A DNA stretch of 63,577 nt, filler included, from Lenisia limosa (GCA_001655205.1; 13 parts of 13 records of this genome joined end to end with filler, not necessarily neighbours in it), one strand, 5' to 3'. Counted from the whole stretch's first letter, positions 17,921 through 63,368 are shown. Notes: generated by a model from the sequence alone, not told the origin. A program made the numbers and translations.

Positions 17921-18027
17921 TGCGGTGCTGCGGAAGCGACTGGCCTTGGCTTGTTTGTTGTGTTGTTATCAACCCTTGTGTGTTGTTAGCCAACAGAGTT
18001 GATTTGGGGGTATTTTTTGTTTGTTGG
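17921..18027 (+). repeat. Intron-associated repeat B, in the last visible PP2A intron
   Basis: gtgatgggatgcggtgctgcggaagcgact...atcaacccttgtgtgttgttagccaacagagttgattt. Confidence 0.85.
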
Positions 18028-18696
18028 NNNNNNNNNNNNNNNNNNNNNNNNNNNNNNNNNNNNNNNNNNNNTTAATTAATTAANNNNNNNNNNNNNNNNN
18101 NNNNNNNNNNNNNNNNNNNNNNNNNNNAGAGTTGATCTTGTACTTTTTTTTGTTTCATAAATTTACCAATTATACTCCGCCCTATCCCCCTCTATTATCA
18201 TAAATACACAACCCCCCAATAATAGTAATTATAGTTAAAATAATAATAATAAAAATAATAATAACAATAATAATAATAACAATAAAAGTAATAGTAACAA
18301 TAAAAATAGTAATAGTAATTAAAAAATATTCTTCTCTTTTGCTCATAATATTTCAGCGTCGAAGCGGAGTAAACGAGGCGCCCAACTCCAGGGTTTGACC
18401 GGGCAATTGATTAGGGTAAACTATCTCACTGCTATATAATATTTAGGCCTTCCCTACATACATGTAATTACATATTTGTTTATAACTATCAATATTTATC
18501 ATAAATAGCCAGAGTCTTTGTAACCGATTCAGGACACCTTGGCGGTGTATTCAAAGAGCAGATCGCCTAGTCCTAACACTATGGTTTGGGGTGAGACGTG
18601 TAGTGACTTAGGCTACTATTAGCAATCAATACCAACAACCCGCCATTCTATCACCAAGCAATTTCATATTGTATGTGATCTGCAAAATTTTTTTGC

Positions 18697-18815
18697 TTCA
18701 GAACCGACTGGTCTGGGCTTTGTTTGTTTTGTTTTTATCAACCCTTGTGTCAGCTAACAGAGTTGATTTGGGGTTTTTTTATTTCATAAATATTCCAATT
18801 TTACTTTCCCCCCCT
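18697..18815 (+). repeat. Repeat B copy
   Basis: cgactggtctgggctttg...atcaacccttgtgtcagctaacagagttgatttgggg...ttcataaatattccaattttactttccccccc. Confidence 0.8.
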
Positions 18816-18845
18816 GGGTAAACACGTCTAATTAGTACATATAAT

Positions 18846-18947
18846 TAGGGCCTCACCTCTGGTTCCAAAAAGACAAGTAAAATATCGATATTTTTCGGGA
18901 ATTTATGTAAAAAAACTCGTCTTATTTCGAATCAAAGTGAAGCACTA
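18846..18947. mobile_element. hAT-type MITE
   Basis: TIRs tagggcctcac / gtgaagcacta; TSD catataat / catataaa. Confidence 0.8.
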
Positions 18948-19032: not shown

Positions 19033-22000
19033 AATAACACGTCATCGGTACAATCCTCACCAGGTCCCCATACTCCACGTTTTACTGCAACCATGAACTC
19101 CGCACTCCAATCTGCCCAGGTTTGGGATACTTCGCAACCAGGGATTCACTTCGGTTCGAAAAATACCGGTAAAATATCGATAGTTTTTGAGAAATTATTT
19201 AGAAATTCAATCTGTTTTTGAACCGATGTGAAGCCCTACTCGCAACCTTTTGAGGATATACAGTGGCTGGGAGAAGTCTTGACCTATATTCCTTTTGAAA
19301 TCACATAAGAACAAATCGGTCAAGAGTTTTCCAGGTCACATTGGAAAAGATCGCTAAACTACCGAAAAATATCGATGATTTATCGAAAAGTTCACATTTT
19401 CTAGACCGCAGTCACGTATTCATACCCACTTCATTCATATTGCTGTGTGTTCTCCTCTTCTTAATAGCGTTTTGAAGAGGCGCACTATTTTTTGTNNNNN
19501 NNNNNNNNNNNNNNNNNNNNNNNNNNNNNNNNNNNNNNNNNNNNNNNNNNNNNNNNNNNNNNNNNNNNTGTTTTTGTTTTTGTTTCCTGTTTTTTTCTAG
19601 TTTTAGCGTTGGTTGCTCGTGTTTGTTATGCTTGTTTTTGATTTTTATTTAATTTTGAGTTTCAGATTATTCGGTTCGTGTTTCGTGATGTAGTACCTTT
19701 ACTTCAATATTCTTCATCGAATATTCCTTCGTTTTACCCCCACCCCCCAGAAAGTCCTCAATCCGGGCCGGGTATCGGAAGGCGAAGCTTCCGACAGTTC
19801 TGACAGTTCCGACGACGATTCCCTCATTTCAAACAGCGGGGGGACTACTCACTCCGGGGAGGGAATTGGAGGTGGGAGGAGGGGAATTGGATAGATTTGG
19901 AGACATTATTTTTTCTGAATTCTAGATGTTCGAAAATTATCAAAAATTTACGAGTCTTTTTGTGACCGGAGAGAAGCCCTAACTCCCAGGTCTCTCTTTC
20001 ACCTCCCGGGTCTATCTTTTACCTCCCAGGTACCCCGGGGAAAACTCCGAAAAGTGTTGGCCAGGTTGCCTTGAGACTTGTTGCCCACCGCCAACGTCGA
20101 AGGTACCCGGGGATTTAGGAGGATTTTTTTCGGAATTTTGGGGAATTTTGGGGATTTGCGGTGATTTAGGTACGGGGGTTGGGGGAGGGGAATTTTGGAG
20201 AATTTGGGAGGTTTAAGTGGGAGGCAAGTTTCACTAGGATGTTTTAGAGTTTGTCAGAAATGGTGTAATAGTTGAAATATTGTTTCAACTTAATATTAAT
20301 TTACTCAAAACATTTTCCTTACAACTACAATATTTGCACATAGTATGCGTGCCTCCTCAGCATAACACAGTGTGCATAACGTTATTGCACATAAATACTC
20401 TAACTACCTTCTATGTGATAGTACTGTGACATTGACACTCCCTTTAGGTCTAGAGGAACAGAGGATACACTGTCACTCTCCCTTGCACATGCAGATATGG
20501 CTGAAATGAAAGCCCATGTTAAGGTAAGGGGGTTGAAATGAAAGCACCCTCAAAGTGTTATCTGATCAAAGGCAGAGTTTTACTCGGGGCTTTTTGTTTT
20601 GTTTCGTAAATTTCCCCATTTTACTCCCCCCCCCCCCNNNNNNNNNNNNNNNNNNNNNNNNNNNNNNNNNNNNNNNNNNNNNNNNNNNNNNNNNNNNNNN
20701 NNNNNNNNNNNNNNNNNNNNNNNNNNNNNNNNNNNNNNNNNNNNNNNNNNGAAAAAACCGACAAACTGGAGAGACTTAAAATCAGAGAAAGGGTGGGTCT
20801 CTTGACAAAATTTTCGAAATGGGCATAATATGAAAAGAAGTATTATCTTTATTTAGTGTTCTCGTTATAAGCTAGACATAAATAAACAAAATGATCCTAT
20901 AATCCAATATCTCTCTTAAGCATATGGTGTGGACGGCTTCCGCCAGATACAACGTTGTTTTATATTTCATCTAGTGTGTCAGATGGACATATGATATAGT
21001 GGAGGGGGATAGTACAAAAAATATTGACCCCAAGTTGACAAGAATACTGAATTTCGATAAATCCTCGAAAAATCATCAAAATACTTAGTTGTACTGTTTT
21101 ATTTCTTGGATTATCTTGTCATAAAAAATAAATCTGATATGATATGGTATCATAATATGATACATTGAAACGAGTTCGAAGAATTAAGTCCAATTGTTGG
21201 ATAGGAACTTGTAATTATTGTAGTTCCCTTTGTTTCAGAATCCAATGTTGTTTGTTTATATATTTAGTAGTCATAATAAATCCATTTAATTGTCATAATT
21301 AATCACTCACCGAGACAGCAATTTCGAGTGAACCAAAATCGAAGAGGTGTCCAAACGGGTCCTGATGTATGCTTTATTTTTGGGGGGGGAAGTACTTTGT
21401 TTTATTATATTGGATTGAAATTGTTTTTTGATTCGGGTTTTTTTTTTACCATTTTCACTCCTCATCGTGCCCCCAGATTCCCGCCATTTGTGCATATTGT
21501 CGATCAGACAAAAGCCGGTACCGAGACGAGGTCAAAGAACTCAAAGCAAAAGTGGGCTTTTTTTACACTGTGACCGGGTTAAAAGTCTTGACCGATTTTC
21601 TATGTGATTTCCTCAGGAAAATCGGTCAAGGCTTATCCCGGTCACTGTTTATCGTACACAATATGAAGCTATAATAGTACCCACCGACATACATACACCC
21701 ACCAATAAATAACCTTACCTGTGGGCTTTTTCTAATATCAATAGGGCTTCCTTACGGGACGAAAAGGATCGTTAAAATATCGATATTTTTCGAGGATTTA
21801 TCGAGATATTCAGGCTTTTTTTGGGACCGTATGAAGCCCTAAATATTTTCAAATACAACCACCATATTCCTTGAGGGTGAGCGAAAGACAAATAGTTGTC
21901 TTGTATATATAATACATGGCTTCATTTTGAGCCAGAAAATGACTGAAAATCTCGATAAATGATCGATATTTTTCGATATTTTGCCGATCGCTTTCGTACC

Positions 22001-25000
22001 AGAGTATAGAAACCCACATAGTTCCTATGAATTACCTTTTTCAGCACAAAGAGCAGTTGAAAGCAATGAGAAAACAGTATCGTTGGGCGCTGCATCAAGT
22101 TGACCTCGAGTGCACCCTGGCTGAAGATGCGGTNNNNNNNNNNNNNNNNNNNNNNNNNNNNNNNNNNNNNNNNNNNNNNNNNNNNNNNNNNNNNNNNNNN
22201 NNNNNNNNNNNNNNNNNNNNNNAAACAAATTATAATTTAGTAGGATTGTTTTGAACAATACATAGGAAGGGGGAGTGGGGGGTATTGACATGGTGGTGGA
22301 GTGAGGGGTTGAAAGAAAACCAATATGGTAATATGATGTCTGGGATACCAATATTGATGGGATGATATGAGGGCGGTACCAGTATTAATGGGATACTACT
22401 TGAGAGACAAGTAAGGGGTGGGGGGATTAGGGCTTCACTTCGGTTCAAAAAAAAGGCTGAATTTCTAGATAAATCCTCGAAAACTATCGATAATTCCCCG
22501 GTATTTTTCGAACCGAAGTGAAGCCCTAGGGTGGATAGATGAAAATAAGTGTAAAAACCAGGAATATTACTTCCAAAGAATATTTGACGGTTTGGGGTAG
22601 AGGTATGGATAAATATGGAATGCATATTCCTGAGTGGAAAAGGACTAATACTCACAAAGATGCGAAATGACCCATAAAGTGATACGATATTCCATTTTTA
22701 ACATTTTAGGAAATCTTTAACCTTCGACAAGACATCTCAGCTTTTGGTAAATGGGTTTTTTTTGCTTTTACATTATTTTTTATTGTTTTAAATATTGAAC
22801 TCAACACTATATCATAGATCATATAGCATTGAGAAATGAAAAACAAGGTTGTATCTGGACGAGTTCGTCCACATATCACGCTTATAAAAGGTATTGAATT
22901 GTAGTATAATTCACCCAATCATTTGCCTTACAACTCTGTGCACACAGCTTTCTGCGTGCCTCCCCAGCATACCTTACAATATAGGTCAGGAACTCGCAAG
23001 AGCGTCAGCTCAACTGCCTTTTCACCCCCCTCAAGTACGCTGGAGAGTGATGGGTGCGGTGCAGAAGCGTCTGGGCTTTGTTTTGTTTTCAACCTATTGA
23101 TAGCTGATTTCGGGCTGTATTGTCCAGTTCCCCCCCCCCCCCCNNNNNNNNNNNNNNNNNNNNNNNNNNNNNNNNNNNNNNNNNNNNNNNNNNNNNNNNN
23201 NNNNNNNNNNNNNNNNNNNNNNNNNNNNNNNNNNNNNNNNNNNNNNNNNNNNNNNNNNNNNNNNNNNNNNNNNNNNNNNNNNNNNNNNNNNNNNNNNNNN
23301 NNTTTTTTGTTTCATAAATTTTCCAATTTTTGGTTTTATTATTGTGAACAAGAGAAAACATTAACAAATAAATACATAGGGATACCATAAACAGATTGGA
23401 ATGATGGGATGAGTACATTTACGCCAATATTCTTCATCAAAATATTCTTCGTTTTGTAGCTGCCGTGCTGGAATGTGGTGGGGCTGTGTTCATCTTGTGT
23501 TCAACCCCTTCCCAAAATACTAAGCCAACAGATTCTGGGTTTTTACAAATTTCAAAAATTTTCCATATTTACGGTGTTCCAAAGAAATTTACCTGCTAAT
23601 CATAAAGGATGTCGCTTCGAAAGTACAAGTACTCAGAAGGACTCAGTACCCTGTAAGCCAAACCTCCACTCTAAATGAGAATATAGCCTCACCTTTTTCA
23701 GCGTGCATCCCCCCCACCCCCACCCGCAGCATACAATAGTGGAAATGACGTCTTTTTGCAAACTTAATCCATCATTAGGACTTCATCATAATGTAGCGTC
23801 ACATTTTTCAGCTCCTTCGAGGCAACGCTCTGGCAAATTGGGCTGTTCTGACTAATAAACTCCTTGGCAAAGGAAACCCGTTTCACATGCACTCGGTGCT
23901 ACTCCATCAGGATTCAATGGTGGGATCTACATATCATATCTTATATACAGGCATACTAAATATAGAGATGATAAATACGTGTAGCACTTTTTGGGTTATT
24001 TTCAAACGTTATTTTCACACATTTGAAGTACAGTTCCCTCATAGTGATGCATGCATATCCACTCGTATAATAGGTAACTGACAAGTTTCAATGATGCACA
24101 ATACTCTGGCTGCGATGTGTGCTGAAACGATTGACTAAAGATAAAGCTCATATGCGTGTCAGGACTTATCGTGGCCACTACATATCATGTTTTTTTACGG
24201 TTATAGCGTGATCCAGATTACGCGATTCACTATCGTTTTTCGATTCATTATCGTTTTTCGATTCACTATCGTTTTTTGATAGTTTTCGGATCTTTTCGAA
24301 CCTAAGCGAAGCCTTCCTAATATCTTGGGCTTCACTTCAGTTCGAAAAAGACTGGTAAAATAGAGATAGTTTTCGAGGATTTATCGAGATATTCAGTACC
24401 AAAGTGAAGCCCTAGATATATGGTTTAACACCAGTACGAAAGATATTGGTAAACTATCGAAATTTATAGATGATTTATCGAAATATATAGTAGATGATTT
24501 ATCTATAAATCTAGTGATTTTCTGGATCGGAGTGAATTTCTTACTTATATCATACAGTCCGCGTACGCACAACCAGCAGCATCGGCAGGAGGCAAAATCA
24601 GCCCATGTCCTCATACCTCTGTTGATGGTACTCTAGCGTGAGAGGGGGGGGGTTATTCTGCCTGCGAATTATTGTACGTGTGTTTGGGAGAAGAAGGTAC
24701 GCATGGCTAAAACAAGTTTGTTTCAAATAGAGACTATCCCTCCCTTCTCGTTTCAAATTTAATATTCCACCAAACACTATCAGCCTCATATCCCCCTAAA
24801 ATTGGAAAATTATTGGGGGGGGGGGAACCATATCAGCAGGTAAAACGAAGGAAACTTCGATAAAGAGTATTGATAAATTATAATAGNNNNNNNNNNNNNN
24901 NNNNNNNNNNNNNNNNNNNNNNNNNNNNNNNNNNNNNNNNNNNNNNNNNNNNNNNNNNNNNNNNNNNNNNNNNNNNNNNNNNNNNNNNNNNNNNNNNNNN

Positions 25001-27067: not shown

Positions 27068-27208
27068 CCGATGGGATGCGGTGCTGCAGAAGCGACTGTC
27101 CTGGTCTTTTTTTGTTTTGTTGTTCCCAACCCTTTTGTGTTGTCAACCATTGGTGTTTGTTTGGGCTTTTCTTTCATAAATTTTCCAATTTTACTCCCCC
27201 CCCCCCAG
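27068..27208 (+). repeat. Repeat B copy ending at a 3' splice site
   Basis: gatgggatgcggtgctgcagaagcgact...ttcataaattttccaattttactccccccccccag, followed by an open GC-rich exon. Confidence 0.85.
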
Positions 27209-30200
27209 ACCCACAGCCAGCCGCCTGCATCCCCTGGGAGTGGTCCTGGTCCTGGCCCTGGGTACCATGGCGCCGACGCCGCCGCAGCTCGTCCTATCGC
27301 CCATGACTGCTTTCTGGTGGGTGGGGTTATGGTTTTTGTGATATTATGACCGCATACAATATCCTCTGACTTGGTAGTATCGCATTCTCCGCCGCCGCCG
27401 CAGAAGACATGCCCGACTTCTTCGCCAGGTGGGGGGTATAATGAGCGATTAGACCAAAATATGAATTTTACATTTCGTTATATTTTTCATCAATCATGTT
27501 GACCACAGGAAAGTAATCACATTTTCTGTGAGATTGCTCATATTATATCACAAATGTGTATTTTAGAACACTGGAAACGGCTTTCATATAATTAATGGAA
27601 GAACCGTATAATATACTGTAGGTTACTTTATAGCATTGCTTCTGAAATCAATTAACTACAATTCTACGATTTAGCTTAGTTCCCGGTTAACTCTACCAGA
27701 TTTGCCGTTCTCCTCTCAGCTGCCCTCTCTGCTGCGGTGGCGGTGGTGGGAAAAGACGAGTTGGTCTTCCGCGAACTGACACAGCTCAAGGTGGGATTAA
27801 ATGATTAGAAGATTTGTTTCATTACAAGCCATCAGAGTTTTTCAACTTTTTTTGTTTCGTAAATTCTCCAATTTCACCCCCCCAGAACCGAGCTGCCCTT
27901 CGGAGTCAATCGATCGCCATTCTGGCCTCTCAAATTCCTATGGTTTGGGGCAGTTTCCCTAACGTTAGCCAACCAGAGAAATTTTCCATTTTTACCACAA
28001 ACACAAACACATACAATTGTGTATGCTATATAAAACCCTCTGTAGTGATCTTTGCCAAAAACAGTTTGAAGCCCCCAAACACACACATACACAGACAATA
28101 TGAGCATAACCCCCCCCCCCCCNNNNNNNNNNNNNNNNNNNNNNNNNNNNNNNNNNNNNNNNNNNNNNNNNNNNNNNNNNNNNNNNNNNNNNNNNNNNNN
28201 NNNNNNNNNNNNNNNNNNNNNNNNNNNNNNNNNNNNNNNNNNNNNNNNNNNNNNNNNNNNNNNNNNNNNNNNNNNNNNNNNNNNNNNNNNNNNNNNNTGA
28301 GAGTGAGAGAGAGGGGGGGGATATTGAGCCTGCTTTTCATTTATTTCTCAATTAATGTCACTGAGTCCCGTAAACACATTTTCCTTCTCTCTTTAAATGT
28401 AGATTAAAACACAACCTTTTCCTTAGCTCATTGAGTGTAGATTAACCTCTCTGAGTTCTCTCTTCGAACCGCTGAGATGCCCCCTGTGGAGGTCGGTTGG
28501 AATAGGTGTTGATGCTCATTTTGGTGTACCTTCCGAGCAAAATACATATTTGTGACATTTTGCAACCTATATGGAGAATGATCATGCTGGGGGGGGGGGG
28601 GCNNNNNNNNNNNNNNNNNNNNNNNNNNNNNNNNNNNNNNNNNNNNNNNNNNNNNNNNNNNNNNNNNNNNNNNNNNNNNNNNNNNNNNNNNNNNNNNNNN
28701 NNNNNNNNNNNNNNNNNNNNNNNNNNNNNNNNNNNNNNNNNNNNNNNNNNNNNNNNNNNNNNNNNNNNNNNNNNNNNNNNNNNNNNNNNNNNNNNNNNNN
28801 NNNNNNNNNNNNNNNNNNNNNNNNNNNNNNNNNNNNNNNNNNNNNNNNNNNNNNNNNNNNNNNNNNNNNNNNNNNNNNNNNNNNNNNNNNNNNNNNNNNN
28901 NNNNNNNNNNNNNNNNNNNNNNNNNNNNNNNNNNNNNNNNNNNNNNNNNNNNNNNNACTGCCCATGTCGGCTTCCAGCCTGCTGAGGCTGCCGGTGGGAT
29001 GGGGTTGGGTGTTGTACATGTATATGCATACGATAGGGTACTCTACATATCGATGTGACTTCCCTGCGGTCCGAAGAAGACAGATTGCGGTGTTACTGTG
29101 TTAGTTTGAGGGAGGGTTCTTGTTTTATGTCTTTTATTAGTGTTTATCATATTAGAAGTTCCTGAACGAACAGGGCTTGGGGGAGGGGGTTAGATCATAG
29201 GAACACGGGGTGTTAGGTTGGAGCTACACTTCTCAAAACACCCTCTCATCATAGGGCTGCATTTCAGTTCGAAAAAAGACCGTTAAAATAGCGAGAAATT
29301 GGAGCCTTTGGGAAGCCCCTCTAATAACTGTATAGGAGACATCTTTACTTCGGCGTCAGCGGAGGAAACACCCTTCGTTACTGCGTGCCTCCAGGTATAA
29401 TGAGGGGAGTATCTATTGGACTCGGTGGAAGAAGGGGGATATAATATCGTATATTTATTTATATTGCCTTATCACTCTAATCATTTGATCGTTTTAGGGT
29501 GTTCCTGATCATTTTAGGATGTTCCTGACCATTTTTAGAGTGTTTCTGACCATTTTTAGAGTGTTGCTGACCATTTTAGGGCGTCGACTTGGTTCTTCTT
29601 TTCCAGGCGTTTATGCACAAAAACAAACTTGGAAGGGTTGGGGGGGGGGGTGAAGAATGGACATTAAGATGGTTTCTCTTTTTAAAATTTCGGGCACTTA
29701 CTTTGTTAGTTTGATAGACATATCATATACAGTATATACATGTATGAAGTAGATGTTTAGTAGCTCTATGCATATGAAGTAGAAATTCAGTGGCTCCATC
29801 AGTAAGGATCCCCGAAACACTACAGCGCATCGACTTGGAATTCACATGTTGCATTGGTAGTCCTATAAAGTTCCTCGCATTTCCCAAAATTACATATTCT
29901 CATGCAATTAACAGAAGTCTCTGCATATTCATAAGAATCCCAAGTCAATATGCCCTGGTGTAGTATAACCCACACACACATACAGCCCCCCTAATACCAC
30001 ACAGCCCCCTGTAGAGCCCATTATCGGCTCATCCGCCTCCGGCACCACCTCTCAGGCCAACAGTCGGCGCGGCTCGACGGACGTCGGCTCCGTCATGAGC
30101 GGTGGCTTGTCCAGTGGGGGGAGGGTAATATGAGCGGTGGCTTGTCCAATGGGGGTAACATTAAATACGGATGTATCGTATATCGTATTATAGGATATAA

Positions 30201-32180
30201 TACACCCATTTGACGGGTAGCAGAAGATCTGGAATGAGGATGTAAGCTGAAAATGTTCGAAGTTAACTAGGGGGCGGGGGGGAGATATCGAGTATCTCAT
30301 CATATGTGCACATGCATGACCGGCATCCGTTTGTTTGCCAACGGAGTTAACTTTGGGGTTATATTTTTATTAATATTTTTCTCATCCTTACCTCCCCTCC
30401 GCAGTCAGCGAAATAGCCTCGGCCATCACTCCCTCTGATGAGGGCGAAGGTGAGCTTTATTTTGACGGCAACCAGCTGAAGAGGCGGCAGAGTAACGCCA
30501 AGTCCAGGTGGGGAGTTGATTGGCCGGGCTTCACTTCGGTCCGAAAAATGACCCATAAAATATCGATATTTATCGAAGATTTATCGAGAAATTCAGTCTT
30601 TTATTGAACCAAAGTGAAGCCCTAGTTGGGGGAGATAAAGGGATGGCTTAGTTGTTTGTATTTTGTCGAACCCCTTAGTTCCCCCTTCCCCCTTGCATTT
30701 ATCACACACACACCCTCATTCCCCTATTTTTTTGTTTTGTTTTTCCGCCGTACAAAGTTATCATTTTATCCCCCCTCCCCATAGATGGCGAAGAGCCTCA
30801 TTGGCGGCCAAACGAATGAGCGTAACTGTCGACGAGGACGAAGCCAACGGTGCCCGGGGGCCAGTTTATGGGGGTATTGGTGGTAGTGAGTTGGGGGTTA
30901 ATTAACAACAAGGGTCAGGGAGTAATAATATTATGATATACAATAAAAAAGGGGGAGAGGAGGGGGTTGACAACATTTCAAGCACTTCTGAGTTTGGATC
31001 CTTTAAAGCTGTGGAATTTCTGACACATTTAGAACTCGGAGATGGTCTCGGTGCTTTACCTAATACGAAGCTGGAGCCCAACGGGCTGTCTCGAAAGCAA
31101 AATGTGTCCCCTAAATCGCCTTCAACGTGAGTGACTGAGTACATGGCTCTTTGTTTATCATCAAACGAATTGATTGCTCCATGCATCCTTTTTCTTACCC
31201 TCATTTTCCCCATCCGTTAACTTGAAAACAGGCCGGACCCTCCGTCGCCCTCCAAACCCGACATAGTCAACACCAGGCGCATGTCCTTGACTGTCGGAAT
31301 GGGGGCCAAAATGATGTCCCATTTCCGCAACCGTGGCCAGAGCCAAAGTGCCCCGGATAAGAAGAAGAAAACNNNNNNNNNNNNNNNNNNNNNNNNNNNN
31401 NNNNNNNNNNNNNCATATCTTAATAAATCATTTAAAACATATAGCTATATAGTGTTATGACTTCGTCCAGATACAACCTTGTTTTGTATTTCTCATTCCT
31501 ATAAATTGTCAACCAGTTTGAAGAGAGAATGTCCAAGAGGTTCCTCACTCCTCTCTCCCCCCCCCCCCCCNNNNNNNNNNNNNNNNNNNNNNNNNNNNNN
31601 NNNNNNNNNNNNNNNNNNNNNNNNNNNNNNNNNNNNNNNNNNNNNNNNNNNNNNNNNNNNNNNNNNNNNNNNNNNNNNNNNNNNNNNNNNNNNNNNNNNN
31701 NNNNNNNNCCCGAGGGCTCGCCTAAAAGTGGGTAGTTTGGGGGTATTCTTATGTTTTCTACTATTTTAAGCATAATAATCCCAATAATTCAGAGGGGTGA
31801 AGGGATTCTATAGAAAACTTCCCGTCCATCCCAGGGTGTTAAATCAAGTATTTATAATACATTAAAAACTGAATACAAAGGAAACAACAAATAATACTCG
31901 CGATATTTAAGCCCCATACCATTCATAACTCTCTTTACCCCTCACGCCCTTATGCTTAGACAGCATAGGATTTGGGCTTTTTCTGTGTAATTTCACGTAC
32001 ACACCCTCTTTATTTCCCACCACCCCCCTATAGACTCATCATATACCCGGGTGCCCTCGGCCACCGTCGACATCAAGGTGACAGACGAGTCCGTGCCGGG
32101 ACCGTTATCCGGAATTGAACTGGACGCAAACTTCCCGCTCGTCCACGCTCGCGCGAGTGTGGCGTGTGGCCGTTCTATTG
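27209..32180 (+). CDS. Hypothetical large multi-exon protein, partial
   Basis: About 15 short GC-rich open exons with C-run AG acceptors and G-run GT donors, e.g. AALSAAVAVVGKDELVFRELTQLK|NRAALRSQSIAILASQIPM, GTLHIDVTSLRSEEDRLR, STSEFGSFKAVEFLTHLELG. Confidence 0.55.
29492..29582. repeat. ~21-bp minisatellite, ~4.5 copies
   Basis: Unit ttttag(g/a)gtgtt(c/t/g)ctgaccat. Confidence 0.85.
29815..29965. mobile_element. Candidate MITE family E; related segments at ~37345-37510
   Basis: acactac..gcatcgacttggaattc at the left versus gaatcccaagtcaatatgc..gtgtagt at the right (imperfect TIR). Confidence 0.45.
30524..30624. mobile_element. hAT-type MITE
   Basis: gggcttcacttcggtccgaaaaa...gaaccaaagtgaagcccta; TSD not evident. 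Confidence 0.8.
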
Positions 32181-32589: not shown

Positions 32590-32932
32590 CCCACTCCCTG
32601 GCCTGGGCTTTGTTTGCTTTNNNNNNNNNNNNNNNNNNNNNNNNNNNNNNNNNNNNNNNNNNNNNNNNNNNNNNNNNNNNNNNNNNNNNNNNNNNNNNNN
32701 NNNNNNNNNNNNNNNNNNNNNNNNNNNNNNNNNNNNNNNNNNNNNNNNNNNNGTCATAATTGATTTTGTGCTTTTTTTGTTCATAAATGTTCCTATTTTA
32801 CTTGATTGATGGGATGCGGTGCTGCAGCGACTAGCCTGGACTTTATTTTTGTGATCAACCCTCGTGTGTTTTCAGCCAACAGAGTTGATTTTGGCTTTTT
32901 TGTTTCAAAAAATTTCCAATGTTACCCCTCTT
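32590..32932 (+). repeat. Two tandem repeat B copies
   Basis: First copy (gapped) ends ttcataaatgttcctattttac; second starts a few bases later with gatgggatgcggtgctgcag. Confidence 0.75.
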
Positions 32933-33282
32933 TTTATTTATGCTTGCCCGCCATGATGGTAAGTGGAGTATTAAACCACCGCCCACATGATGCTGATAAG
33001 TTTGGCACTATACATTTGTAATGTTGTCCTTTTTTTTCCCCTTGGACTGCCGGATATATTATACTACTATATTGGAATTTACCATAAACAACTATCACCT
33101 AAACCATAACATTTAACCATGAGACATATTCAAACATAAACCATGAGACTTAATATGTACATAAGCCACCACCCACATGATGATGATCATTTTGGCGCAA
33201 TACTTTTGTATTGCTGGACATTTTTTACTTGTAATCTCTCCCTTTAAATGGTATGTTATTGACCTCTCCTCCCCCTTTTTTT

Positions 33283-35477: not shown

Positions 35478-35926
35478 GTAAGAGGGTTTTTATTCAGCAT
35501 ATTTAGTGGGTTTTGCAATTCTGTGTGTGTGTTTTCGTTGTTGTTTTTTGTTTTTGTTTTTTTTTATGTTTTGCTTTGTTACATTTTGGCTGATTTTAAT
35601 TCCGGCTCCCCTCCCACTGGGCATAGTTTGCTTTGCTGTTTTTAACCCTTGTGTGTTGTGTTATAGCCAATAGAATTAATTCGGCNNNNNNNNNNNNNNN
35701 NNNNNNNNNNNNNNNNNNNNNNNNNNNNNTTAATTAATTAANNNNNNNNNNNNNNNNNNNNNNNNNNNNNNNNNNNNNNNNNNNNAGGCCAGTCCCTTCT
35801 GCAGCACCGGGGTGAGGTGATTGGTGATACATTAAATGAAATATAAATGCTGGGGGTGGGGGAGTATGATCGTGAAGATGTGTAGGAATGCCCCCCCCCC
35901 GGCCGCCCATATCCCCCCAACATGAC

Positions 35927-45069: not shown

Positions 45070-45219
45070 GTTACACCCCNNNNNNNNNNNNNNNNNNNNN
45101 NNNNNNNNNNNNNNNNNNNNNNNTTAATTAATTAANNNNNNNNNNNNNNNNNNNNNNNNNNNNNNNNNNNNNNNNNNNNTGAAAACAACAAAGCCCAAGA
45201 TCCATCCGCTTCAACATCA

Positions 45220-51907: not shown

Positions 51908-52432
51908 GTGTTCCTTTTTTTTCATATGCTTACACAAATGATGCATTTCATTATAGTATTCATATATGTGTGTATGTAGAATAAATATATGATATAGTAC
52001 TATAATAGGACTATGCATATCACTTTTATTTATATGTATGTTAACACATATCCACTAGTGAAGTGATCAAATGACCGACTTTCAAGAATGATGAACGAAG
52101 AAAACACGAGGGTTCATCCCAAGTGTATAAGAGTATCATTGAGACTTGTCAGTCAATTATCATACGAGTGAATATGAGTTATCATATCACTGCGTGGAAA
52201 ATGATAGTTCACACGGGTGAAAATGATCCAAAAAGTGATATGATAGGTATGTTATACGATATAGTATACTACATGTATATCATATATACTATATGATATA
52301 CATAGCTATATATATATATGATATACATAGCTNNNNNNNNNNNNNNNNNNNNNNNNNNNNNNNNNNNNNNNNNNNNTTAATTAATTAANNNNNNNNNNNN
52401 NNNNNNNNNNNNNNNNNNNNNNNNNNNNNNNN

Positions 52433-52509
52433 ACACAAGCAAGGGTTGATAACAACAACACAAACAAAGCCCAAGCCATTCGCTTCTGCAGCACCGCACT
52501 CCAGCGTAC
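52433..52509 (-). repeat. Repeat B 5' part, sense to the RBM34-like gene
   Basis: Reverse complement gtacgctggagtgcggtgctgcagaagcgaatggcttgggctttg...atcaacccttg. Confidence 0.8.
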
Positions 52510-52906
52510 GTAAGTCATCAAAAATAAAATAAAAAAAGCGGGGATTTTCTCAACCACGTATTCGGTTTAATTACGTCTAGGGATCCCCATGGTCCCAAAA
52601 AAATCGATATTATAAAGGTGTTTATCGGACTGAAGGGAAGCCCTAATTACCCCCCCCCCCCCNNNNNNNNNNNNNNNNNNNNNNNNNNNNNNNNNNNNNN
52701 NNNNNNNNNNNNNNNNNNNNNNNNNNNNNNNNNNNNNNNNNNNNNNNNNNNNNNNNNNNNNNNNNNNNNNNNNNNNNNNNNNNNNNNNNNNNNNNNNNNN
52801 NNNNNNNNNNNNNNNNNNNNNNNNNNNNNNNNNNNNNNNNACAAAAAAAAAGCCCAAAATCAATTCTGTTGGTAAACAAACAAGGGGTGAGAACATAACG
52901 TTTCTA

Positions 52907-52983
52907 CAGTGATCGGGATAAGTCTTGACCGATTTGTTTTGTGATTTCCCTTGGAAAATCGGTCAAGACTTATCCAGTCACTG
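52907..52983. mobile_element. Tc1/mariner-type MITE
   Basis: ta|cagtgatcgggataagtcttgaccg...cggtcaagacttatccagtcactg|ta. Confidence 0.88.
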
Positions 52984-53089
52984 TACTTTTTAGAAGATAG
53001 ATCAGAAATAGAAGGGGGGGGGGGCAGGAATATGAAACTATCAGACAGAAGCCGCATTATCACTTGCTTGAGAGGTCAGAGCCACTCAC

Positions 53090-55002
53090 ATTCTGATGTG
53101 TTCCTCCAGGGATATTTGAGACAAAAACGGTTCGCTCGGCCTTCTCATCCTCGACCTTCTTTTCTGAGACCTTCTTCTCAAACTTTTCGCGCTTTTTCTG
53201 TTCCGTGAAGACGGCAACTGCGGCGGCACTGGCTGCCACTTTCCTCCGAGCCTCCCTGGGGGGGGGGGTGAAACAAAGGCAGTTTCTATGAAGAATATTG
53301 GCGTAATGGTACCCACGAAACGAAGCGAAATACTGTTTTCCAAAAGAGAGAAGCAAAACCACAATGAGTATAGTCAAGAACCAGTGAGAGAGCGTGAAAT
53401 GAACGAAATGTATGAAATTAATAAAAACGAAGGAAATTTCTATGAAGGTAATAGGAACTAACCCCCTAACCAAATAATCTAAAACCCAAGGAATAATGGA
53501 AAAATTGTTGGCACAACATTTGAAAAACACACGAGGGTTGATAACAACAAAACANNNNNNNNNNNNNNNNNNNNNNNNNNNNNNNNNNNNNNNNNNNNNN
53601 NNNNNNNNNNNNNNNNNNNNNNNNNNTCCTTGGTTTTACGGAGGGCATTGTCACCACGTTTGAAATGCATAATGAGTGATTCCCTACGATCCGAAAAAGA
53701 CCGTCGCGATATCGAAAATTGTCGAGGAGTGTTTAAAATCATATGCTTTGCCAAGTGAATGACAAAGCAAAACTGTCGACGTCTTGTAAAATGATATAAT
53801 ATGCGATTTCATATTATTGTCTTTCACGCTAATCCTCTTCATTGCATTTTTCTTGGTTTTGCCCCCCCCCCATACATGAACTTAGTCTGGGCATCCTTCC
53901 GTGCCGGGGACCACTTGGCTTTCTTCTCCTTCTTCGGTTTCTTCTTTTCCGTCTTCTTGTCTTCAAGCCCATCGTCTCCAACAACAGCCTTCTCGCCAGA
54001 AAAGTCGGCCTTCTTCTCAGTCTTCTCGTCATCTTTCTCTTTCGTCTCACTCTTCTCCTCCTTGTCACCATCCTTTTCCTTCTTCTCTTCAGCCTTCTTC
54101 ATGGACGATTTGTTCTTGGCTTTGCTTTCTTCCTCCGATTTAATGATCTGAAGTGTGAGGTCTTTTTCAAACAGTCCGCTGAATATTGACATGTTTCGTG
54201 CTTTCCTTGTTAACAACAATGTATTGCGAACTACCAATATTGATCACAAGTGCCAAAGCTTCCATTTTATTATCAAGGCCAAGTAAAATGTCAAGATATA
54301 TATGAAGGCTTTATCGCAACTATTCGTTCATATTCAGGGATTTATGCAGACTTTCAGGCTTAAGATCAACCCATTTCAAAGGATGGTATTAATTGTCACT
54401 AGTACACTCATCTTCATATTTACTACTCGGTGTTTGGACTTACGGTGTAATCAGATTAATCAGCTTATTGCAAGTTTTAACGCAGAATTACAAGTATTAA
54501 CGCAGAATCATTATCCCTTCGGGATCCAATATGGTTTACTTGTCATTTCGAAAACCGGATACTCACCAGAATGCTCTCCTTATTCCCATGCATACCTCAT
54601 GGAGATTGATTTCCATTGTCTGCTCCTCACCCTTGGCAGCAGCGAGAGCCTTCCTAGCTTCCTCAATGCTGGATTTGGGGGTCTACATGGTCACAAACAG
54701 GGAGGTCATCAGACAAAACAAAGTTAGTCCATTTTGCCGCCCAAGCTTACAACTTCTAAGTTTTCAAACTCATTTCTGCCGTAAGAGAACTTGGGGAGAA
54801 CAAAAGGGGTTGTGTCACCAGGAGCTGGGTATTCAGAAGGGGAAGCTGAGTCTTCGATATCAGTTTTTGAGTCCTTAGCGGCAGATTTCTTCTCAGCATT
54901 CTTCCGGGACTTCTTTCCTTTGGGAAGTTGAGCAACAGGTACTTCAACTACTTTCTTCTTAAGTTGCGAAGGGGCTTCAAACATGGAAGATAGTCCCTCC
55001 AT
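53090..55002 (-). CDS. Lys/Glu-rich nucleolar RRM protein (RBM34/Nop12-like), 5' part
   Basis: Long KE-rich N-terminus followed by EDEKAERTVFVSNIP (RNP2-like, as in RBM34 ERTVFVGNLP). The rest of the RRM was not resolved. Confidence 0.55.
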
Positions 55003-55272
55003 GATGACTTTTAAAAGGAAAATTGGATTGCACCAAAAACACTTTTAAAGGCTCCCGGCCGCGTATCATATAGCCACACTTTCATACAACGGTCCCCCAT
55101 GAAAAACAGAAGAAAAATACAAAAATACAAAATATCCAATCATCCAATCATCACGCTTCTAAATGTAACATCGTGTTAATTGTTCCACAATATAAAATAG
55201 AATTAGCAATGTAACAAGAGAAAGAGACCAAGAGTCTCTGTTTTCGCTTGATCATTATCGTAGACGACAGAA

Positions 55273-58200
55273 ATGGCCACCCCAGATGCTTCTTCGCTTC
55301 ATTGTAGGTTTATTGAAGATTATATGATGGCATATTGCCCTCAGTACGCTTTCTTCTAAATCTTTTCATGACATAGCAGTCCCATTCCCCTTCTCTGTAC
55401 TGATAATTCTTATCAAAACTTGAAAAATCCTCATTTTGGGGGGAGATTGCTAGTTTTTGACCCTTCCGAGTCTAGCTTTTGGATGATAGTTCACGTTTGT
55501 GTGTTCCATGGGTTGGTGGCCTGATAGCATTCTTAACATGATCATTTCACCCTCCTTCTTGAACCTTTTTAAATTCTCAGCTCTATTCCACATTTAACCA
55601 TTTCTAACCCAACATTCCTCTTTTACCTCCTTTCCTCTTGTTACACCTTATCCAACCTTTCCTCTTGTTATCCAACCTTTCCTCTTGTTACACCTTAACC
55701 AACCTTTCCTCTTGTTACACCTTAACCAACCTTCCTCTTGTTACCCCTTAACCAACCTTTCCTCTTGTTACCCCTTAACCATGACAGTGCTGGTGGATGA
55801 CTGGTCCAACTTCAACCGAGGCGACCGTCTATGTTGGGTTATTGAACGTGGGAGGAGGAATATGAAATACTGTGGGTATGATAATATACAAATATGTGTA
55901 CTATTATGTGGGGGGGGGGGGAGGTCATATTGNNNNNNNNNNNNNNNNNNNNNNNNNNNNNNNNNNNNNNNNNNNNNNNNNNNNNNNNNNNTTGCTATTC
56001 CGTTGCAAGTAGACCAATATAGTATTATTGCTACTCCAGGCTATCGACAGCACCAACTTTCATTATTTATGACTTTTTAACAACTCCAATGATTTTTGAC
56101 ATGGTTGAGTTTTTCGAATAATGTTGTACACTGTAAACAATTAAGCAAAGCTTTTTTTAAGTTTAAATAATCATAATACATATTTGAATTCCAAATTTCG
56201 TCAGTTTCTCTCCTTAAGTATTTTATTCTACCAATTTCCAAAAGTTGGTTGTTTGTTTGGAGATTGTCACAAAACAGATCTGAAATCTCACGTTGCGATT
56301 GAAGGATGTCAAGGTGCTCCACGTACCCCAAAACCAAGGTGGGGAGGTGGTGAGATTAATCAGTTCAAGCACTATATGGCCAATATATTTTAAAACCTTG
56401 TTCTGTATTTCATAATGTATATATGATATTATATCATATACTATATGGTCATTATAGTCCCTCACATACCCAAATTATTGTCATATTGCTGACATAGATC
56501 AGTATTATCACTTTCCAATATTTAGCGAAACAAACAGTTCAACCGGTGTTTGTGTAGCGTACCTGAGCTCATCACTCTTTTTCTCTGCTCAGCAGTTTTT
56601 TTACGAATATCTCTGCAGTTTTTTGAAGAAGATCTCTGCTCTTTAGTTTTAAGATTATCTCAGCTTTCAGTTTGTTAAGAATTCTATCAGTTTTTTTAGA
56701 ATTCTAAAAGTTTTTGATGTTTTAGAGCCGTATGCGCGGAAGTTGGCAAAGGCCAACCAGCCACAGGCACCGTGTAGGGAGATGGGGTGTATACCCAAGA
56801 AGACGTAATTTCTCGATAAATCCTCGATAAATGACGATATTTTACCGGTAATTGTCTGACTGTAGGGAAGCCCTAGCTTTAATACATAGGGTATGTGTGG
56901 GGTACTGTAGGGATGCGGTACTAGCAAGCGAACTGTGTTGGGTTCGACTCAAACACCCCCATGATGGGATGCGGTGCTGCAGAAGCGACTGNNNNNNNNN
57001 NNNNNNNNNNNNNNNNNNNNNNNNNNNNNNNNNNNNNNNNNNNNNNNNNNNNNNNNNNNNNNNNNNNNNNNNNNATTTTCCAATTTTACTCTCCCCCCAG
57101 GAACCTTGTGCTGGATACGGAAGTCCGATTTGTTGCATCAGAGTACCGAGTCGTGATTGTGGTGGACCTCTCTAGGAGCACTGCAGTGGGAGGGGGGTAT
57201 AATGGGTGTATGTGGGGGGTTGGGATTGAATTTCTCAATAAATCCTTGATAATTTTCGATATTTTATCGTTATTTTGGGACCGTGGAAGCCCTTGATATT
57301 TTTTTATTCACACAGACTGTGCCTTTTGAAGGCGACTCAGTTGGCCTCGATCGGATCATTGTTGCTCTCGAGCAGACCCTGTTGTCCCTTGCTGAGACAT
57401 ACTCCTTGCCTGGAGGTATGCTTTTGTTGAAAGTTGAAAAATCTATAAATATCTACGATTCGAAGCCATTGTTGCTCACCATCTCAGCGGAAGCGTCCCT
57501 CTTTAGCCCAGTTGTTCACCTGTCAATTATCGGCCAGGGTGGAGGAAAGTTGGCCATACATTATTCGGGATTTCCTCTTTTCTAAAATGACAGGCAGAGT
57601 GTAACTACACATACATGTATTTCACCCTCACCGCAATGTTTGAGCAAAAGAAGTGTTTTTTTAACAGTATTCTTGTTTTTGTAATTGTTTTTAAACTCTC
57701 AAAGGCGGAGTTGCATAATTTCTTCGAAATTATTTTCATAGAATACAAATTATCCTTCCTCACCACCTCCCTCGTTTGTTTTGTTTTGTTGGATTCAACT
57801 CTCATGAGTTGCTAGCCAACAGAGTTGATTTTCGGCTATTTTTGTTTTATAAATTTTCCAATTTACCCCACCCTTCTCCACAGCATGCCAATTAGAATCC
57901 TGGTACACGACATTCTGTTAACTCCAGAAAGCCTCATGTCAACCTTGTCTAATGTATGGGGGAGTATGGGATTTTATGTTGTTTTGTCATGAAATTATCT
58001 GTTTTATTTTTGTTTTTGAGCCTTTGCAAATTTCTCAAATGCTAAATTCACCAATTCTCATTTCACCCCCCCCCCCCAATGGGATGTGNNNNNNNNNNNN
58101 NNNNNNNNNNNNNNNNNNNNNNNNNNNNNNNNNNNNNNNNNNNNNNNNNNNNNNNNNNNNNNNNNNNNNNNNNNNNNNNNNNNNNTCGTTCGTTTTACCC

Positions 58201-58298
58201 CTCCCCCCTCTTTTAGGTGCGAAGACGTCTGTTGGAAGTCGAGCATAAACTGGTCAAATCCAGGGTTAAGGAAGAGTCTACACTACAGTCATGGAGGG
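55273..58298 (+). CDS. SZT2: SZT2 (KICSTOR subunit) homolog, 5' part
   Basis: Spliced MATPDASSLHL|LVDDWSNFNRGDRLCWVIE|HLKSHV..VRFVASEYRVVIVVDLSRSTA|..IIVALEQTLLSLAETYSLPG|..FSPVVHLSII..RILVHDILL tracks the SZT2 N-terminus (RISRNVRLAWFLSHL..FLA.QYRFVIELDLSPST..FQPEIYVTI..QVLVQG). Confidence 0.82.
55630..55780. repeat. 27-bp minisatellite at the 3' end of SZT2 intron 1, ~6 copies
   Basis: Unit ccaacctttcctcttgttac(a/c)ccttaa; the last unit is followed by ccatgacag| (acceptor at 55787). Confidence 0.88.
56962..57100 (+). repeat. Repeat B copy ending at an SZT2 3' splice site
   Basis: gatgggatgcggtgctgcagaagcgactg..[N]..attttccaattttactctccccccag|gaaccttgtg. Confidence 0.85.
57775..57883 (+). 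repeat. Repeat B copy ending at an SZT2 3' splice site
   Basis: gctagccaacagagttgattttcggct...ataaattttccaatttaccccacccttctccacag|catgccaatt. Confidence 0.82.
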
Positions 58299-61200: not shown

Positions 61201-61816
61201 AATTCTTAATTGAGTAGGTTTTATGCTTAAATTACATACTCATTATTACATTTTAATACTTCACACCTTTCTATTGTGGCTTGGAATCCTCAATAATGTG
61301 TCTTACAAATTACAATGTCCTTGACATTGAGTAGGCTTTGAGCTTAAATGACCGAATGTACCATAATCATTATTTATGTATATATTTCTCGCCTTGCTAT
61401 TTAAGTTGGAAGCCTCAATAATCTATCTTTGATTACACTTGTTGTTGTTGAATTTTATCTTACCCTTGTTGATTTAATATATGTATGTACCTAATGGTAA
61501 GATACGAAGTGACGCCGTACTTATCATCTTTGGTCAATCTGCATCCATTATGCTTTTATTGTTTTCTTATCATAGATGGACACTTAAGGAGTGAAAGATA
61601 TAATATACTTCAATGTTGCGGAATAATACAAGAAAATAAGGTAAATTTAGGGCTTTTTTATTTCATAATTTTTCCAATTCTACCTCCCCCCCTCTATTCA
61701 GGTTCTGTCGTATATTACCACTCACTGTTGCGACATTCTTCCGACACTCCGTTCTCATATCCACCCAACCACCATCTCATATATACATCCACTCCATTTC
61801 TCATATCATTGATAAC

Positions 61817-61884
61817 CTGGGCTTCACTTTCGGTCGATAAACTCAATATTTTATCAGTCTTTTTCTTAACGAAGTGAAGCCCTA
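61817..61884. mobile_element. hAT-type MITE, internally deleted
   Basis: gggcttcactttcgg...cgaagtgaagcccta; TSD ttgataac / ttgatatc. Confidence 0.82.
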
Positions 61885-62187
61885 TTGATATCACCCTTTT
61901 TGTTCAGTACCGCCCACCCAACCCTCATCATCTGATATCTCCATCCACTCCATTCCTCATATCATTGGTCACACCAATCCATCACCATCTCATATCCATC
62001 TACTCTGTTCTCATTTTATAAAGTATTTGAAAATTCTTGCTTTCTTCGATTTGTTCTTTATCTATTTTCCCCTGTGATTTGTGATATNNNNNNNNNNNNN
62101 NNNNNNNNNNNNNNNNNNNNNNNNNNNNNNNTTAATTAATTAANNNNNNNNNNNNNNNNNNNNNNNNNNNNNNNNNNNNNNNNNNNN

Positions 62188-63368
62188 AGCCGATGTTGCC
62201 GGCAACCAGTCCCAGGTCTGTCACCTCACAGGCGTGGCTACTCCAGAAGAAACCTTGTGGGGGCTTATGCAAGGCGATTGCAATCAAAATGAATACTCTT
62301 GTTTTCATCAATCCACAACGAACGAGTATCCTCTTTTTTTGGTTATTAACACGCTATCGGAACACGTGGCAACAGCCTGATTAGAGCTTCACTTCGGTTC
62401 GAAAAAGACGGTAAAATATCGATAGTTTTCGAGGATTTATCGAGAAATTCAGTCTTTTTTCGAACCTAAGTGAAGCCCTAAGCCTGGTACTTCCCTTCTT
62501 ACTTATCTTTCCCTTCGCTCACTCCTCAGGTTGGTATCACAGGAGATTCTCCAGCGCCACACCACAAAGGGGCCTAAAACAGTCCACGAGTATAGGGGGT
62601 TGTGGGTTCGGTGGTGGTGATTAGAGCCTCACTTTCGGTTCCAAAATGATAAAAATATCGAGGATTTATCGAGGATTTATCGAGGATCCAGTTTTTTATG
62701 GAACCGAAAGTGACGCTCTAGTAGTGCTTGGTGACCGTTATCATTTCGACTTGCGAGTTGGCTATATGATCATATCACTAGTGGATGGGTGAACATACCA
62801 AAACTCTAAAAGAAAAGGGGGGGGTAGAACATACCATAATCCAAATATGGCATCGACCAAATTTCTATCTTGCATTATACACCATATTTTACATCATGTT
62901 TTACTGGAGTAGACAAGATGACGAGAACCCCTTCTTGGACCCTGTTTCAGGAGTGGAGGAGGAGCCAATCAGAGAAATGCTGTGGGCNNNNNNNNNNNNN
63001 NNNNNNNNNNNNNNNNNNNNNNNNNNNNNNNNNNNNNNNNNNNNNNNNNNNNNNNNNNNNNNNNNNNNNNNNNNNNNNNNNNNNNNNNNNNNNNNNNNNN
63101 NNNNNNNNNNNNNNNNNNNNNNNNNNNNNNNNNNNNNNNNNNNNNNNNNNNNNNNNNNNNNNNNNNNNNNNNNNNNNNNNNNNNNNNNNNNNNNNNNNNN
63201 NNNNNNNNNNNNNNNNNNNNNNNNNNNNNNNNNNNNNNNNNNNNNNNNNNNNNNNNNNNNNNNTTTCAATTTTCCAATTTTACTCTCTAATATCCCAGAT
63301 CCACCCCCCGCAGCACACGGGGCAGACGGTCTGTTCCCTTATCCCGGTCACGGAATAGCTCTAGAAGG
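62188..63368 (+). CDS. Hypothetical multi-exon gene fragment
   Basis: Open GC-rich exons ending at G-run donors: ADVAGNQSQVCHLTGVATPEET, RQDDENPFLDPVSGVEEEPIREM, DPPPAAHGADGLFPYPGHGIALE. Confidence 0.4.
62382..62480. mobile_element. hAT-type MITE, near consensus
   Basis: tagagcttcacttcggttcgaaaaagac...ttcgaacctaagtgaagcccta; TSD agcctgat / agcctggt. Confidence 0.9.
62623..62720. mobile_element. hAT-type MITE, variant-TIR subfamily
   Basis: tagagcctcactttcggttcc...ggaaccgaaagtgacgctcta; TSD gtggtgat / gtagtgct. Confidence 0.82.

What the first reader, a model, noticed from the sequence alone, without database searches (positions are those of the whole stretch)
17921..63296. Strand-biased repeat family (B/C) that ends at 3' splice sites in unrelated genes: candidate introner-like element
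Seen: a ~150-bp sequence (gatgggatgcggtgctgcagaagcgact...atcaacccttgtgtgttgttagccaacagagttgattt...ttcataaattttccaattttactccccc) occurs about 20 times, whole or partial, on independent scaffolds. Its orientation follows the host gene: + in PP2A, dynein, CSN7 and SZT2; - in SHQ1, the RBM34-like, LamG-like and 41.7-44 kb genes. One antisense fragment was noted (~24795-24870). Its C-rich end runs into the acceptor AG at 27208, 27885, 34954, 40880, 57100, 57883 and 61701; at the dynein, CSN7 and SZT2 sites the next exon restores conserved protein sequence in frame. A second module C (cagattattcggttcg..tacgccaatattcttcat..ttccttcgttttacccc) follows B in several introns and also ends at acceptors (19750, 23459, ~53259, ~41845). 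No TIR, TSD or poly-A tail is evident. Known: Micromonas and Aureococcus introners are small DNA elements that carry or co-opt splice sites. Inference: a mobile or gene-converted unit that supplies branch point, polypyrimidine tract and AG, which would explain the sense-only retention.
Basis: partly seen in the sequence, partly recalled or inferred. Interest (0 to 1): 0.8.

Follow-up and report, generated by a model that had tools for sequence, protein, structure and literature searches.

The report
Mobile repeat rewriting intron 3' ends
In a single-celled breviate eukaryote, a repeat of about 140 bases lies inside introns facing the same way as the gene and often ends right at the splice acceptor; it likely spreads as copied intron RNA that lands just before the acceptor of introns that already exist, rather than creating new introns.

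Summary
The repeat is real. B (about 140 nt, copies 74-88% alike) is sense to its host in 21 of 21 copies; control repeats are mixed (19:11, 4:4). 13 of 23 B/C ends lie within 20 nt of an acceptor, against 0 of 34 control copies. DNA contigs show it is abundant genome-wide, with a sharp GT-initiated 5' edge preceded by a C-run and a 3' edge running into C-run plus AG. RNA confirms two claimed acceptors (19750, 53256) and contradicts one (23459; 23607 is used). The host PP2A protein is identical to Lenisia limosa PP2A. The introner label mostly fails here: only 1 of 38 introns starts with B, and the B-bearing PP2A intron shares its position with 5 other eukaryotic loci. Best reading (0.5): an intron-shaped, RNA-copied element that inserts between branch point and AG of existing introns, brings a new branch point and C-tract, and uses the host AG. 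The mechanism is inferred, from one window. No earlier finding of this scan matched this sequence or genome.

The parts
17912..18027 (+). B copy, 5' end intact, in last PP2A intron; 3' end cut by scaffold end
   Evidence: intron position shared with 5 other eukaryotic loci
18128..18190 (+). B 3' part, not flush (about 160 nt before a predicted acceptor)
18694..18815 (+). B copy, not flush; a family-A MITE lies between it and the acceptor near 19032
19655..19750 (+). C copy ending at RNA-confirmed acceptor 19750
20545..20637 (+). B 3' part running into an N gap; the RNA's next exon is compatible with an acceptor in the gap, not shown
23035..23143 (+). B copy with a short 5' extension that begins exactly at the RNA-confirmed donor
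23303..23332 (+). B 3' end, stacked in intron 23035-23607
23394..23459 (+). C copy, stacked; its AG is not the acceptor used by the RNA contig
23466..23572 (+). degenerate B copy ending 35 nt before RNA-confirmed acceptor 23607
24795..24875 (-). antisense C copy, C-run and B end, about 160 nt into the intron after exon 24558-24638
27069..27208 (+). full-length B ending in C-run plus AG (acceptor predicted)
27824..27885 (+). 5'-truncated B at predicted acceptor of a 95-nt intron
30331..30404 (+). 5'-truncated B at predicted acceptor
32596..32801 (+). B copy spanning an N gap, head-to-tail with the next copy (weak score)
32805..32935 (+). full-length B, 360 nt before the dynein acceptor, no AG
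34885..34954 (+). B 3' part at dynein acceptor, with a family-D repeat directly upstream
35617..35685 (+). B middle part, cut by scaffold end
35786..35809 (-). B 5' fragment in SHQ1, cut by scaffold end
40737..40880 (+). full-length B at acceptor of CSN7-like intron 40639-40880; 10-bp C-rich direct repeat on both sides
41841..41966 (-). B 3' part followed by a C copy ending at a predicted acceptor
45182..45233 (-). degenerate B 5' part, cut by scaffold end
   Evidence: host strand predicted only
52433..52515 (-). B 5' part with the same short extension as at 23035
52843..52895 (-). B middle part running into an N gap
53256..53335 (-). C copy ending at RNA-confirmed acceptor 53256
53424..53554 (-). 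stacked B middle part and C copy in intron 53256-53875
53820..53875 (+). antisense C copy whose C-run is the G-run behind the RNA-confirmed donor
56961..57100 (+). B spanning an N gap, ending at a predicted acceptor
57776..57883 (+). 5'-truncated B ending at a predicted acceptor
58020..58216 (+). stack: B-like end, C-run, B start, gap, C end at a predicted acceptor (weak scores)
61642..61701 (+). B 3' part ending in C-run plus AG; host gene and acceptor not verified
63264..63298 (+). B 3' end after an N gap at a predicted acceptor (weak)

Best explanation
B (and separately C) is a non-coding repeat that lies sense-oriented in introns and often ends at the acceptor, and it is likely an intron-derived mobile element copied through RNA and inserted into the short stretch between branch point and AG of introns that already exist. 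Shown: high abundance, sense orientation, acceptor-flush ends, a sharp GT-initiated 5' edge, 5'-truncated and stacked copies, no terminal inverted repeat, and residence in at least one ancient intron. Inferred: the template is an excised intron from a few whole-intron master loci. Inferred: reverse transcription starts at its C-rich 3' end, which would explain the 5' truncations. Inferred: integration is guided by C-tract microhomology at a transcribed 3' splice site. The old branch point and part of the C-tract are left upstream, the element's own TTTTAC plus C-tract likely takes over, and the host AG is kept, so the mRNA is unchanged and the insertion is tolerated. New C-tracts would then be targets for further copies, giving stacks. 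No enzyme was found; a reverse transcriptase or repair polymerase acting in trans is assumed.
For: Sense 21 of 21 in 11 genes (p=1e-6 by copy; copies are not independent); controls A 19:11 and D 4:4. 13 of 23 ends within 20 nt of an acceptor against 0 of 34 control copies. Of the other 10, 7 are in stacks (6 upstream of another B/C unit, 1 the last unit, 35 nt from the AG). 10 of 16 B 5' ends have a branch-like motif or C-run directly upstream against 14% of intron positions (p=1e-5). The genome-wide loose-end consensus says the same: T-run, C-run, then GTGATGGGA upstream (121 contigs, agreement 0.47) and TACT, C-run, AG downstream (94 contigs, agreement 0.53). The PP2A intron holding B has the same phase-2 position in 5 metagenome loci. 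Only 1 of 38 introns starts with B, while 7 of 38 end in B/C (9 with two gap-cut cases). Copy 23035 starts at a real donor, which shows the unit can act as an intron start. One antisense copy sits flush on a donor G-run, i.e. a C-run on its own strand.
Against: No reverse transcriptase, endonuclease or master locus was found; no assembly was available. Target-site duplication is not significant overall (permutation p=0.076, 10 copies; one 10-bp case). C-run homology alone does not explain the bias: G-runs follow 15 of 38 donors and would be antisense targets, as common as acceptor C-runs (11 of 38), yet only one unit sits there. C-runs are rare at B-free acceptors (3 of 29), so the upstream C-run may belong to an earlier copy or to the element rather than to a native target. 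5' ends were picked by eye. Most acceptors are predicted, some were placed next to B, and 14 of the 67 listed were off by a few bases. Intron antiquity was tested for one intron only. Branch-point use is untested. Two of 7 C copies are antisense.
Confidence: 0.5

Rival explanations
1. B is a classical TIR-less introner like Micromonas IE-A: a whole intron that spreads by reverse splicing and makes new introns. The window shows mainly its nested, merged and decayed copies.
For: GT start, branch motif and AG end, sense-only, no TIR. Intron 23035-23607 starts with B at the donor and consists almost wholly of B/C units. The 95-nt intron 27791-27885 aligns to B over its 3' two thirds. Nested, merged and intron-buried IEs are reported in Micromonas (PMC3879977, passages and section 11).
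Against: 1 of 38 introns has B at the donor. The genome-wide upstream consensus is a C-run without AG, not exon sequence. The PP2A intron is ancient. Non-flush copies lack AG. Antisense C copies are not expected from reverse splicing.
Confidence: 0.2
2. No RNA step: breaks at fragile poly-C/G tracts are repaired by templated copying (ectopic gene conversion or microhomology-mediated repair) from another intron end, which homogenises intron 3' ends.
For: C-runs on both sides of many copies, variable 5' truncation, one antisense copy on a donor G-run, no TIR or poly-A, and many assembly gaps at C/G runs (sequence).
Against: A sharp shared 5' edge in 121 contigs with unrelated sequence beyond it; no co-copied host or exon sequence in window copies; donor G-runs hardly used.
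Confidence: 0.15
3. B is an ordinary non-autonomous transposon (Helitron-, SINE- or Crypton-like) that inserts at random; only sense copies at acceptors survive selection.
For: The introns are full of other small transposons (families A, D, E). Introners from such classes exist (PMC12130899, passages).
Against: Non-flush interior B copies are also all sense; D of similar size is 4:4; 0 of 21 B copies lie outside genes. No TIR, fixed-length TSD or poly-A tail.
Confidence: 0.1
4. B is a functional intron-encoded RNA family (snoRNA-like) kept near branch points.
For: Sense-only intronic location; a 6-bp stem is 79% paired in 13 aligned copies, and 1 of 500 shuffles reached the covariation score of the 9-pair structure tested (the tool warns that relatedness inflates this).
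Against: No Rfam hit at E<=1. 5 of 6 B copies fold no better than shuffles (z from -0.9 to +1.3; one at -2.5). Many copies are truncated or interrupted, and the element overlaps the branch point.
Confidence: 0.05

Closest known systems
Micromonas introner elements IE-A/IE-C and fungal introner-like elements (PMC3879977: passages and section 11; PMC4540971: passages)
   Same: Repeated, non-coding, under 200 nt, sense strand of genes, no TIR; nested, merged and intron-buried copies occur; RNA-based spread proposed.
   Different: IEs are mostly whole introns at new positions (6,112 IE-A against 463 remnants). Here 1 of 38 introns starts with B, copies pile up at the 3' end of existing introns, and the AG appears to be the host's.
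Introners as defined by Gozashti et al. 2022 and 2025 (PMC9860276: parts 1-2 of 7, passages, supplement search; PMC12130899: passages, 12 of 14 supplements searched)
   Same: Families that carry or co-opt splice signals, some with neither TIR nor TSD.
   Different: Their pipelines require similarity up to both splice boundaries and filter out secondary insertions into existing introns, which is what this element mostly is.
Canine merle SINE at an intron/exon boundary (PMC7349775, search listing and start of abstract only; that antisense poly-A SINEs supply polypyrimidine tracts is recalled)
   Same: A retro-copy lands at an acceptor and brings a pyrimidine tract.
   Different: That is a single antisense insertion with a poly-A tail that disturbs splicing; here copies are sense, C-tailed, abundant and apparently tolerated.
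Full-length and tail-trimmed intron circles (PMC10996645, passages)
   Same: A trimmed 3' end joined to the 5' GT would give the C-run-then-GT junction seen upstream of B.
   Different: Shown only as RNA in yeast and human; no genomic copies are described, and no circle was tested here.

Membership tests
Introner (Gozashti definition) | Multi-copy family in unrelated genes | tested here: met
   21 B copies in 11 genes, 74-88% identity; abundant in DNA contigs
Introner (Gozashti definition) | Similarity reaches both splice boundaries | tested here: not met
   7 of 38 introns end in B/C, 1 of 38 starts with B, and there the two ends belong to different copies
Introner (Gozashti definition) | Creates an intron at a position absent from orthologs | tested here: not met
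   Only PP2A was testable: position shared with L031, L069, L073, L075, L078. Intron 23035-23607 could be new but has no ortholog to compare
Introner (Gozashti definition) | Removed by splicing | tested here: met
   RNA contigs skip B/C-bearing introns 19120-19750, 23035-23607 and 53256-53875
TIR-less RNA-type introner (IE/ILE) | Sense strand only | tested here: met
   B 21 of 21; C only 5 of 7
TIR-less RNA-type introner (IE/ILE) | Stable secondary structure | tested here: inconclusive
   No whole-copy signal; one 6-bp stem partly kept
TIR DNA transposon / MITE | Terminal inverted repeats and fixed-length TSD | tested here: not met
   B has no opposite-strand self-hit at E<1, unlike A and E; TSD permutation p=0.076
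Non-LTR retro-copy (SINE-like) | Shared 3' end with 5' truncations | tested here: met
   3' 23-mer 13 matches against 5' 23-mer 5 matches; N gaps and scaffold ends blur this
Non-LTR retro-copy (SINE-like) | Poly-A tail, variable TSD, Pol III promoter, partner LINE | tested here: inconclusive
   Tail is C-rich, not A; TSD in 1 of 10 copies; no partner among 8 scaffold-1 ORFs or 118 other ORFs; promoter not tested; genome not available
Intronic snoRNA / known ncRNA | Rfam match or conserved boxes and fold | tested here: not met
Any | Element's own branch point is used | not testable with these tools
   needs lariat sequencing

The most novel reading that the evidence does not exclude
A selfish excised intron that homes to 3' splice sites: its RNA (linear or tail-trimmed circle) is reverse-copied into the branch-point-to-AG gap of other introns genome-wide, and has replaced the 3' splicing signals of roughly a fifth of the introns examined without adding or removing any intron. 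This would be a class of splice-site-replacing element that introner screens filter out by design, and a natural record of spliceosomal intron retro-mobility.
Probability: 0.3. Interest if true: 0.85.

Novelty: new variant of a known kind. Interest (0 to 1): 0.62.

Why it matters
How TIR-less repetitive introns move is an open question (PMC10996645, PMC4540971, passages). An abundant family with a fixed GT start, 5' truncations and a stereotyped landing site next to the acceptor makes RNA-mediated models testable from one genome: 5'-end histograms, flank duplications, youngest copies and lariat maps. It would also show that a mobile element can turn over branch points and pyrimidine tracts of ancient introns, and so reshape a lineage's splice consensus (C-runs at 8 of 9 element-ended acceptors against 3 of 29 others). 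Breviates are close outgroups of animals and fungi (recalled), so their intron content bears on ancestral reconstructions.

Tried and rejected
No assembly was held, so there is no genome-wide count of orientation or distance. An exact B 23-mer gave 0 matches in metagenome, viral and prokaryote collections. Rfam: nothing on B/C. Folding gave no general stability; my second helix was mis-registered and says nothing. Shared B/C terminus: rejected (p=0.31). General TSD: not significant. Homolog searches for the scaffold-4 gene, CSN7 and SZT2-like exons returned only the window's own ORFs, unrelated repeat proteins or nothing; the dynein exon after 34954 found no relevant structure. RNA contigs did not cover the SZT2-like gene. 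Exon fits for SHQ1 and scaffold 7 gave no combinations because my starting coordinates were too rough, so those acceptors stay predicted. Summed contig depth (453,580 at 52474 against about 40 on unique stretches) is not used as a copy number. B-like pieces in the RNA run were not taken as evidence of a separate transcript, since DNA or pre-mRNA could give them. No autonomous partner was found in scaffold 1. Literature searches found no description of this repeat. Lenisia is absent from the main text of PMC9860276, occurs once in its stored supplement, in a genome list (file cut when stored), and is absent from 12 of 14 supplements of PMC12130899 (2 not searched); subscription papers are not covered. 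Earlier-finding look-ups gave nothing on this sequence or genome.

Full report
Setting. The window is 13 scaffolds joined by spacers; no assembly was held. Its PP2A exons translate to two stretches (124 and 145 aa) found letter for letter in a EukProt protein labelled Lenisia limosa, so the organism is this breviate or a near-identical one. Two public runs hold the DNA: X1 (96% of sampled words) and the poly-A RNA run X2 (14%). They are from one study and are not independent of the assembly.

Is the repeat real? Yes. Profiles built from window copies, without the terminal C-run, give 21 B hits at 8 bits or more (of 29 at E<=10) and 7 C hits at 13 bits or more (of 9). The best null scores were 7.5 and 12.7. 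Long B copies are 74-88% identical, so the body is a homologous 100+ nt sequence and not a generic splice motif. Laying X1 on 52433-58614 placed 7,860 of 195,906 contigs, concentrated on B and two MITEs. B is thus abundant genome-wide, although summed depth is no copy number.

Orientation. B is sense in 21 of 21 copies in 11 genes, on both strands. In the five genes whose strand rests on RNA or a protein family match (PP2A, scaffold-3 gene, RBM34-like, dynein, SHQ1) it is 12 of 12. Control repeats in the same introns are mixed: A 19:11 and D 4:4. C is 5:2. Host strands for scaffolds 8 and 12 are predictions.

Position. RNA contigs define 12 complete introns, the PP2A protein 7, and open spliced frames 19 more. 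Of these 38, 7 end in B/C sequence (9 with two gap-cut cases) and 1 starts with B. 13 of 23 B/C 3' ends lie within 20 nt of an acceptor against 0 of 34 control copies; this is partly circular where acceptors are only predicted. RNA confirms flush ends at 19750 and 53256. It contradicts 23459: the contig skips 23035-23607, an intron that is a stack of four B/C units beginning at the donor and ending 35 nt before the AG. Across contigs the consensus behind B is TACT, a C-run and AG (94 contigs), so the window pattern holds outside it.

Edges. The consensus in front of B is a T-run, a C-run without AG, then GTGATGGGA (121 contigs, agreement 0.47). In the window 10 of 16 hand-picked 5' ends have a branch-like motif or C-run just upstream, against 14% of intron positions. 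Tails between the branch-like motif and the AG differ from copy to copy, and non-flush copies have no AG, so the AG is probably the host's (inference from sequence). There are no TIRs. A target duplication is clear once (10 bp, CSN7-like intron) but not overall (p=0.076). B and C do not share a significant terminus.

Did it make the introns? For the one testable case, no. Of 80 metagenome PP2A-family loci, most were intronless, and 14 showed split or gapped alignments. I examined 9 of them at this site: 5 gave a GT-AG intron in the same codon and phase as the window's B-bearing intron. The other 4 gave no hit in my script, though their sequence shows a short intron-like insert there. The published introner definition needs similarity at both boundaries and excludes secondary insertion (PMC9860276; PMC12130899). 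B fails this in the window. Whole-intron master copies elsewhere are not excluded, and the copy at 23035 shows that B's 5' end can coincide with a donor.

Mechanism. The anatomy (GT start, branch-like motif and C-tail, shared 3' end with 5' truncations, sense-only, landing between branch point and AG, stacking) fits best with retro-copying of an excised intron into the 3' tail of other introns (0.5). Against a pure C-run homology model, donor G-runs are as common as acceptor C-runs (15 against 11 of 38) but host only one antisense unit. Some coupling to transcription or splicing, pairing across the AG, or selection must therefore be added. Rivals: a classical IE-like introner seen through nested copies (0.2; such copies exist in Micromonas, PMC3879977), DNA-level templated repair at C/G tracts (0.15), random insertion plus selection (0.1), and a functional ncRNA (0.05; no Rfam hit, no general fold).

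Novelty. It works like TIR-less repetitive introns but is not shown to be a member, so I file it as a new variant. My searches found no description of this repeat or of a family that mainly replaces 3' splice signals of existing introns; the library lacks most subscription papers, one supplement was cut and two were not searched. The pattern is solid; the mechanism rests on one window and contig-level data. Interest 0.62.

Noticed in passing
window 18846-18946, 19139-19238, 21742-21841, 22428-22528, 30524-30624, 47897-47997, 61817-61884, 62382-62480 and about 25 more: Family A: about 100-bp MITE with terminal inverted repeats and roughly 8-9 bp target duplications in several copies; an 8-bp duplication would suggest hAT type (label recalled). 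33 copies at >=13 bits.
   Followed up: partly
window 19261-19339, 21568-21647, 48148-48225, 52907-52983: Family E: about 78-bp palindromic MITE with CAGT ends, flanked by TA on both sides in 2 of 4 copies; Tc1/mariner-like (label recalled).
   Followed up: partly
window 20897-20974, 22820-22904, 31457-31503, 34802-34880, 36608-36672, 39101-39184, 42130-42172, 47536-47588: Family D: about 85-bp non-palindromic repeat in introns, both orientations (4:4), unclassified; used as control.
   Followed up: partly
38 introns listed: G-runs of 4 or more follow 15 of 38 donors and C-runs precede 11 of 38 acceptors; where both occur the intron ends could pair (untested).
   Followed up: partly
window 15905-17705: PP2A has at least 9 introns; besides the last one, alignment gaps at two other positions (P0058 residues 37 and 249) recur in fungal-like metagenome loci, suggesting retained ancient introns.
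   Followed up: partly
window 1-720 and 5575-5900: A large-subunit rRNA fragment (minus strand) breaks off into a repeat that recurs near 5580; scaffold 1 is repeat-rich with no B or C.
   Followed up: no
window 10138-10539 (-): Adaptin N-terminal domain exon (E=1e-17).
   Followed up: no
window 41039-41149 (-) and 51695-51976 (+): Weak metallophosphoesterase match on scaffold 7 (E=0.057) and EGF-like domain on scaffold 9.
   Followed up: no
window 25346-25534 and 25716-26500: A 33-bp tandem array and a long (ATT/CTT)n microsatellite inside the scaffold-3 gene region.
   Followed up: no
window 19591-19674: The T-rich stretch upstream of C is also repeated elsewhere (an RNA-run contig with 9 differences), so C may be longer than mapped.
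   Followed up: no
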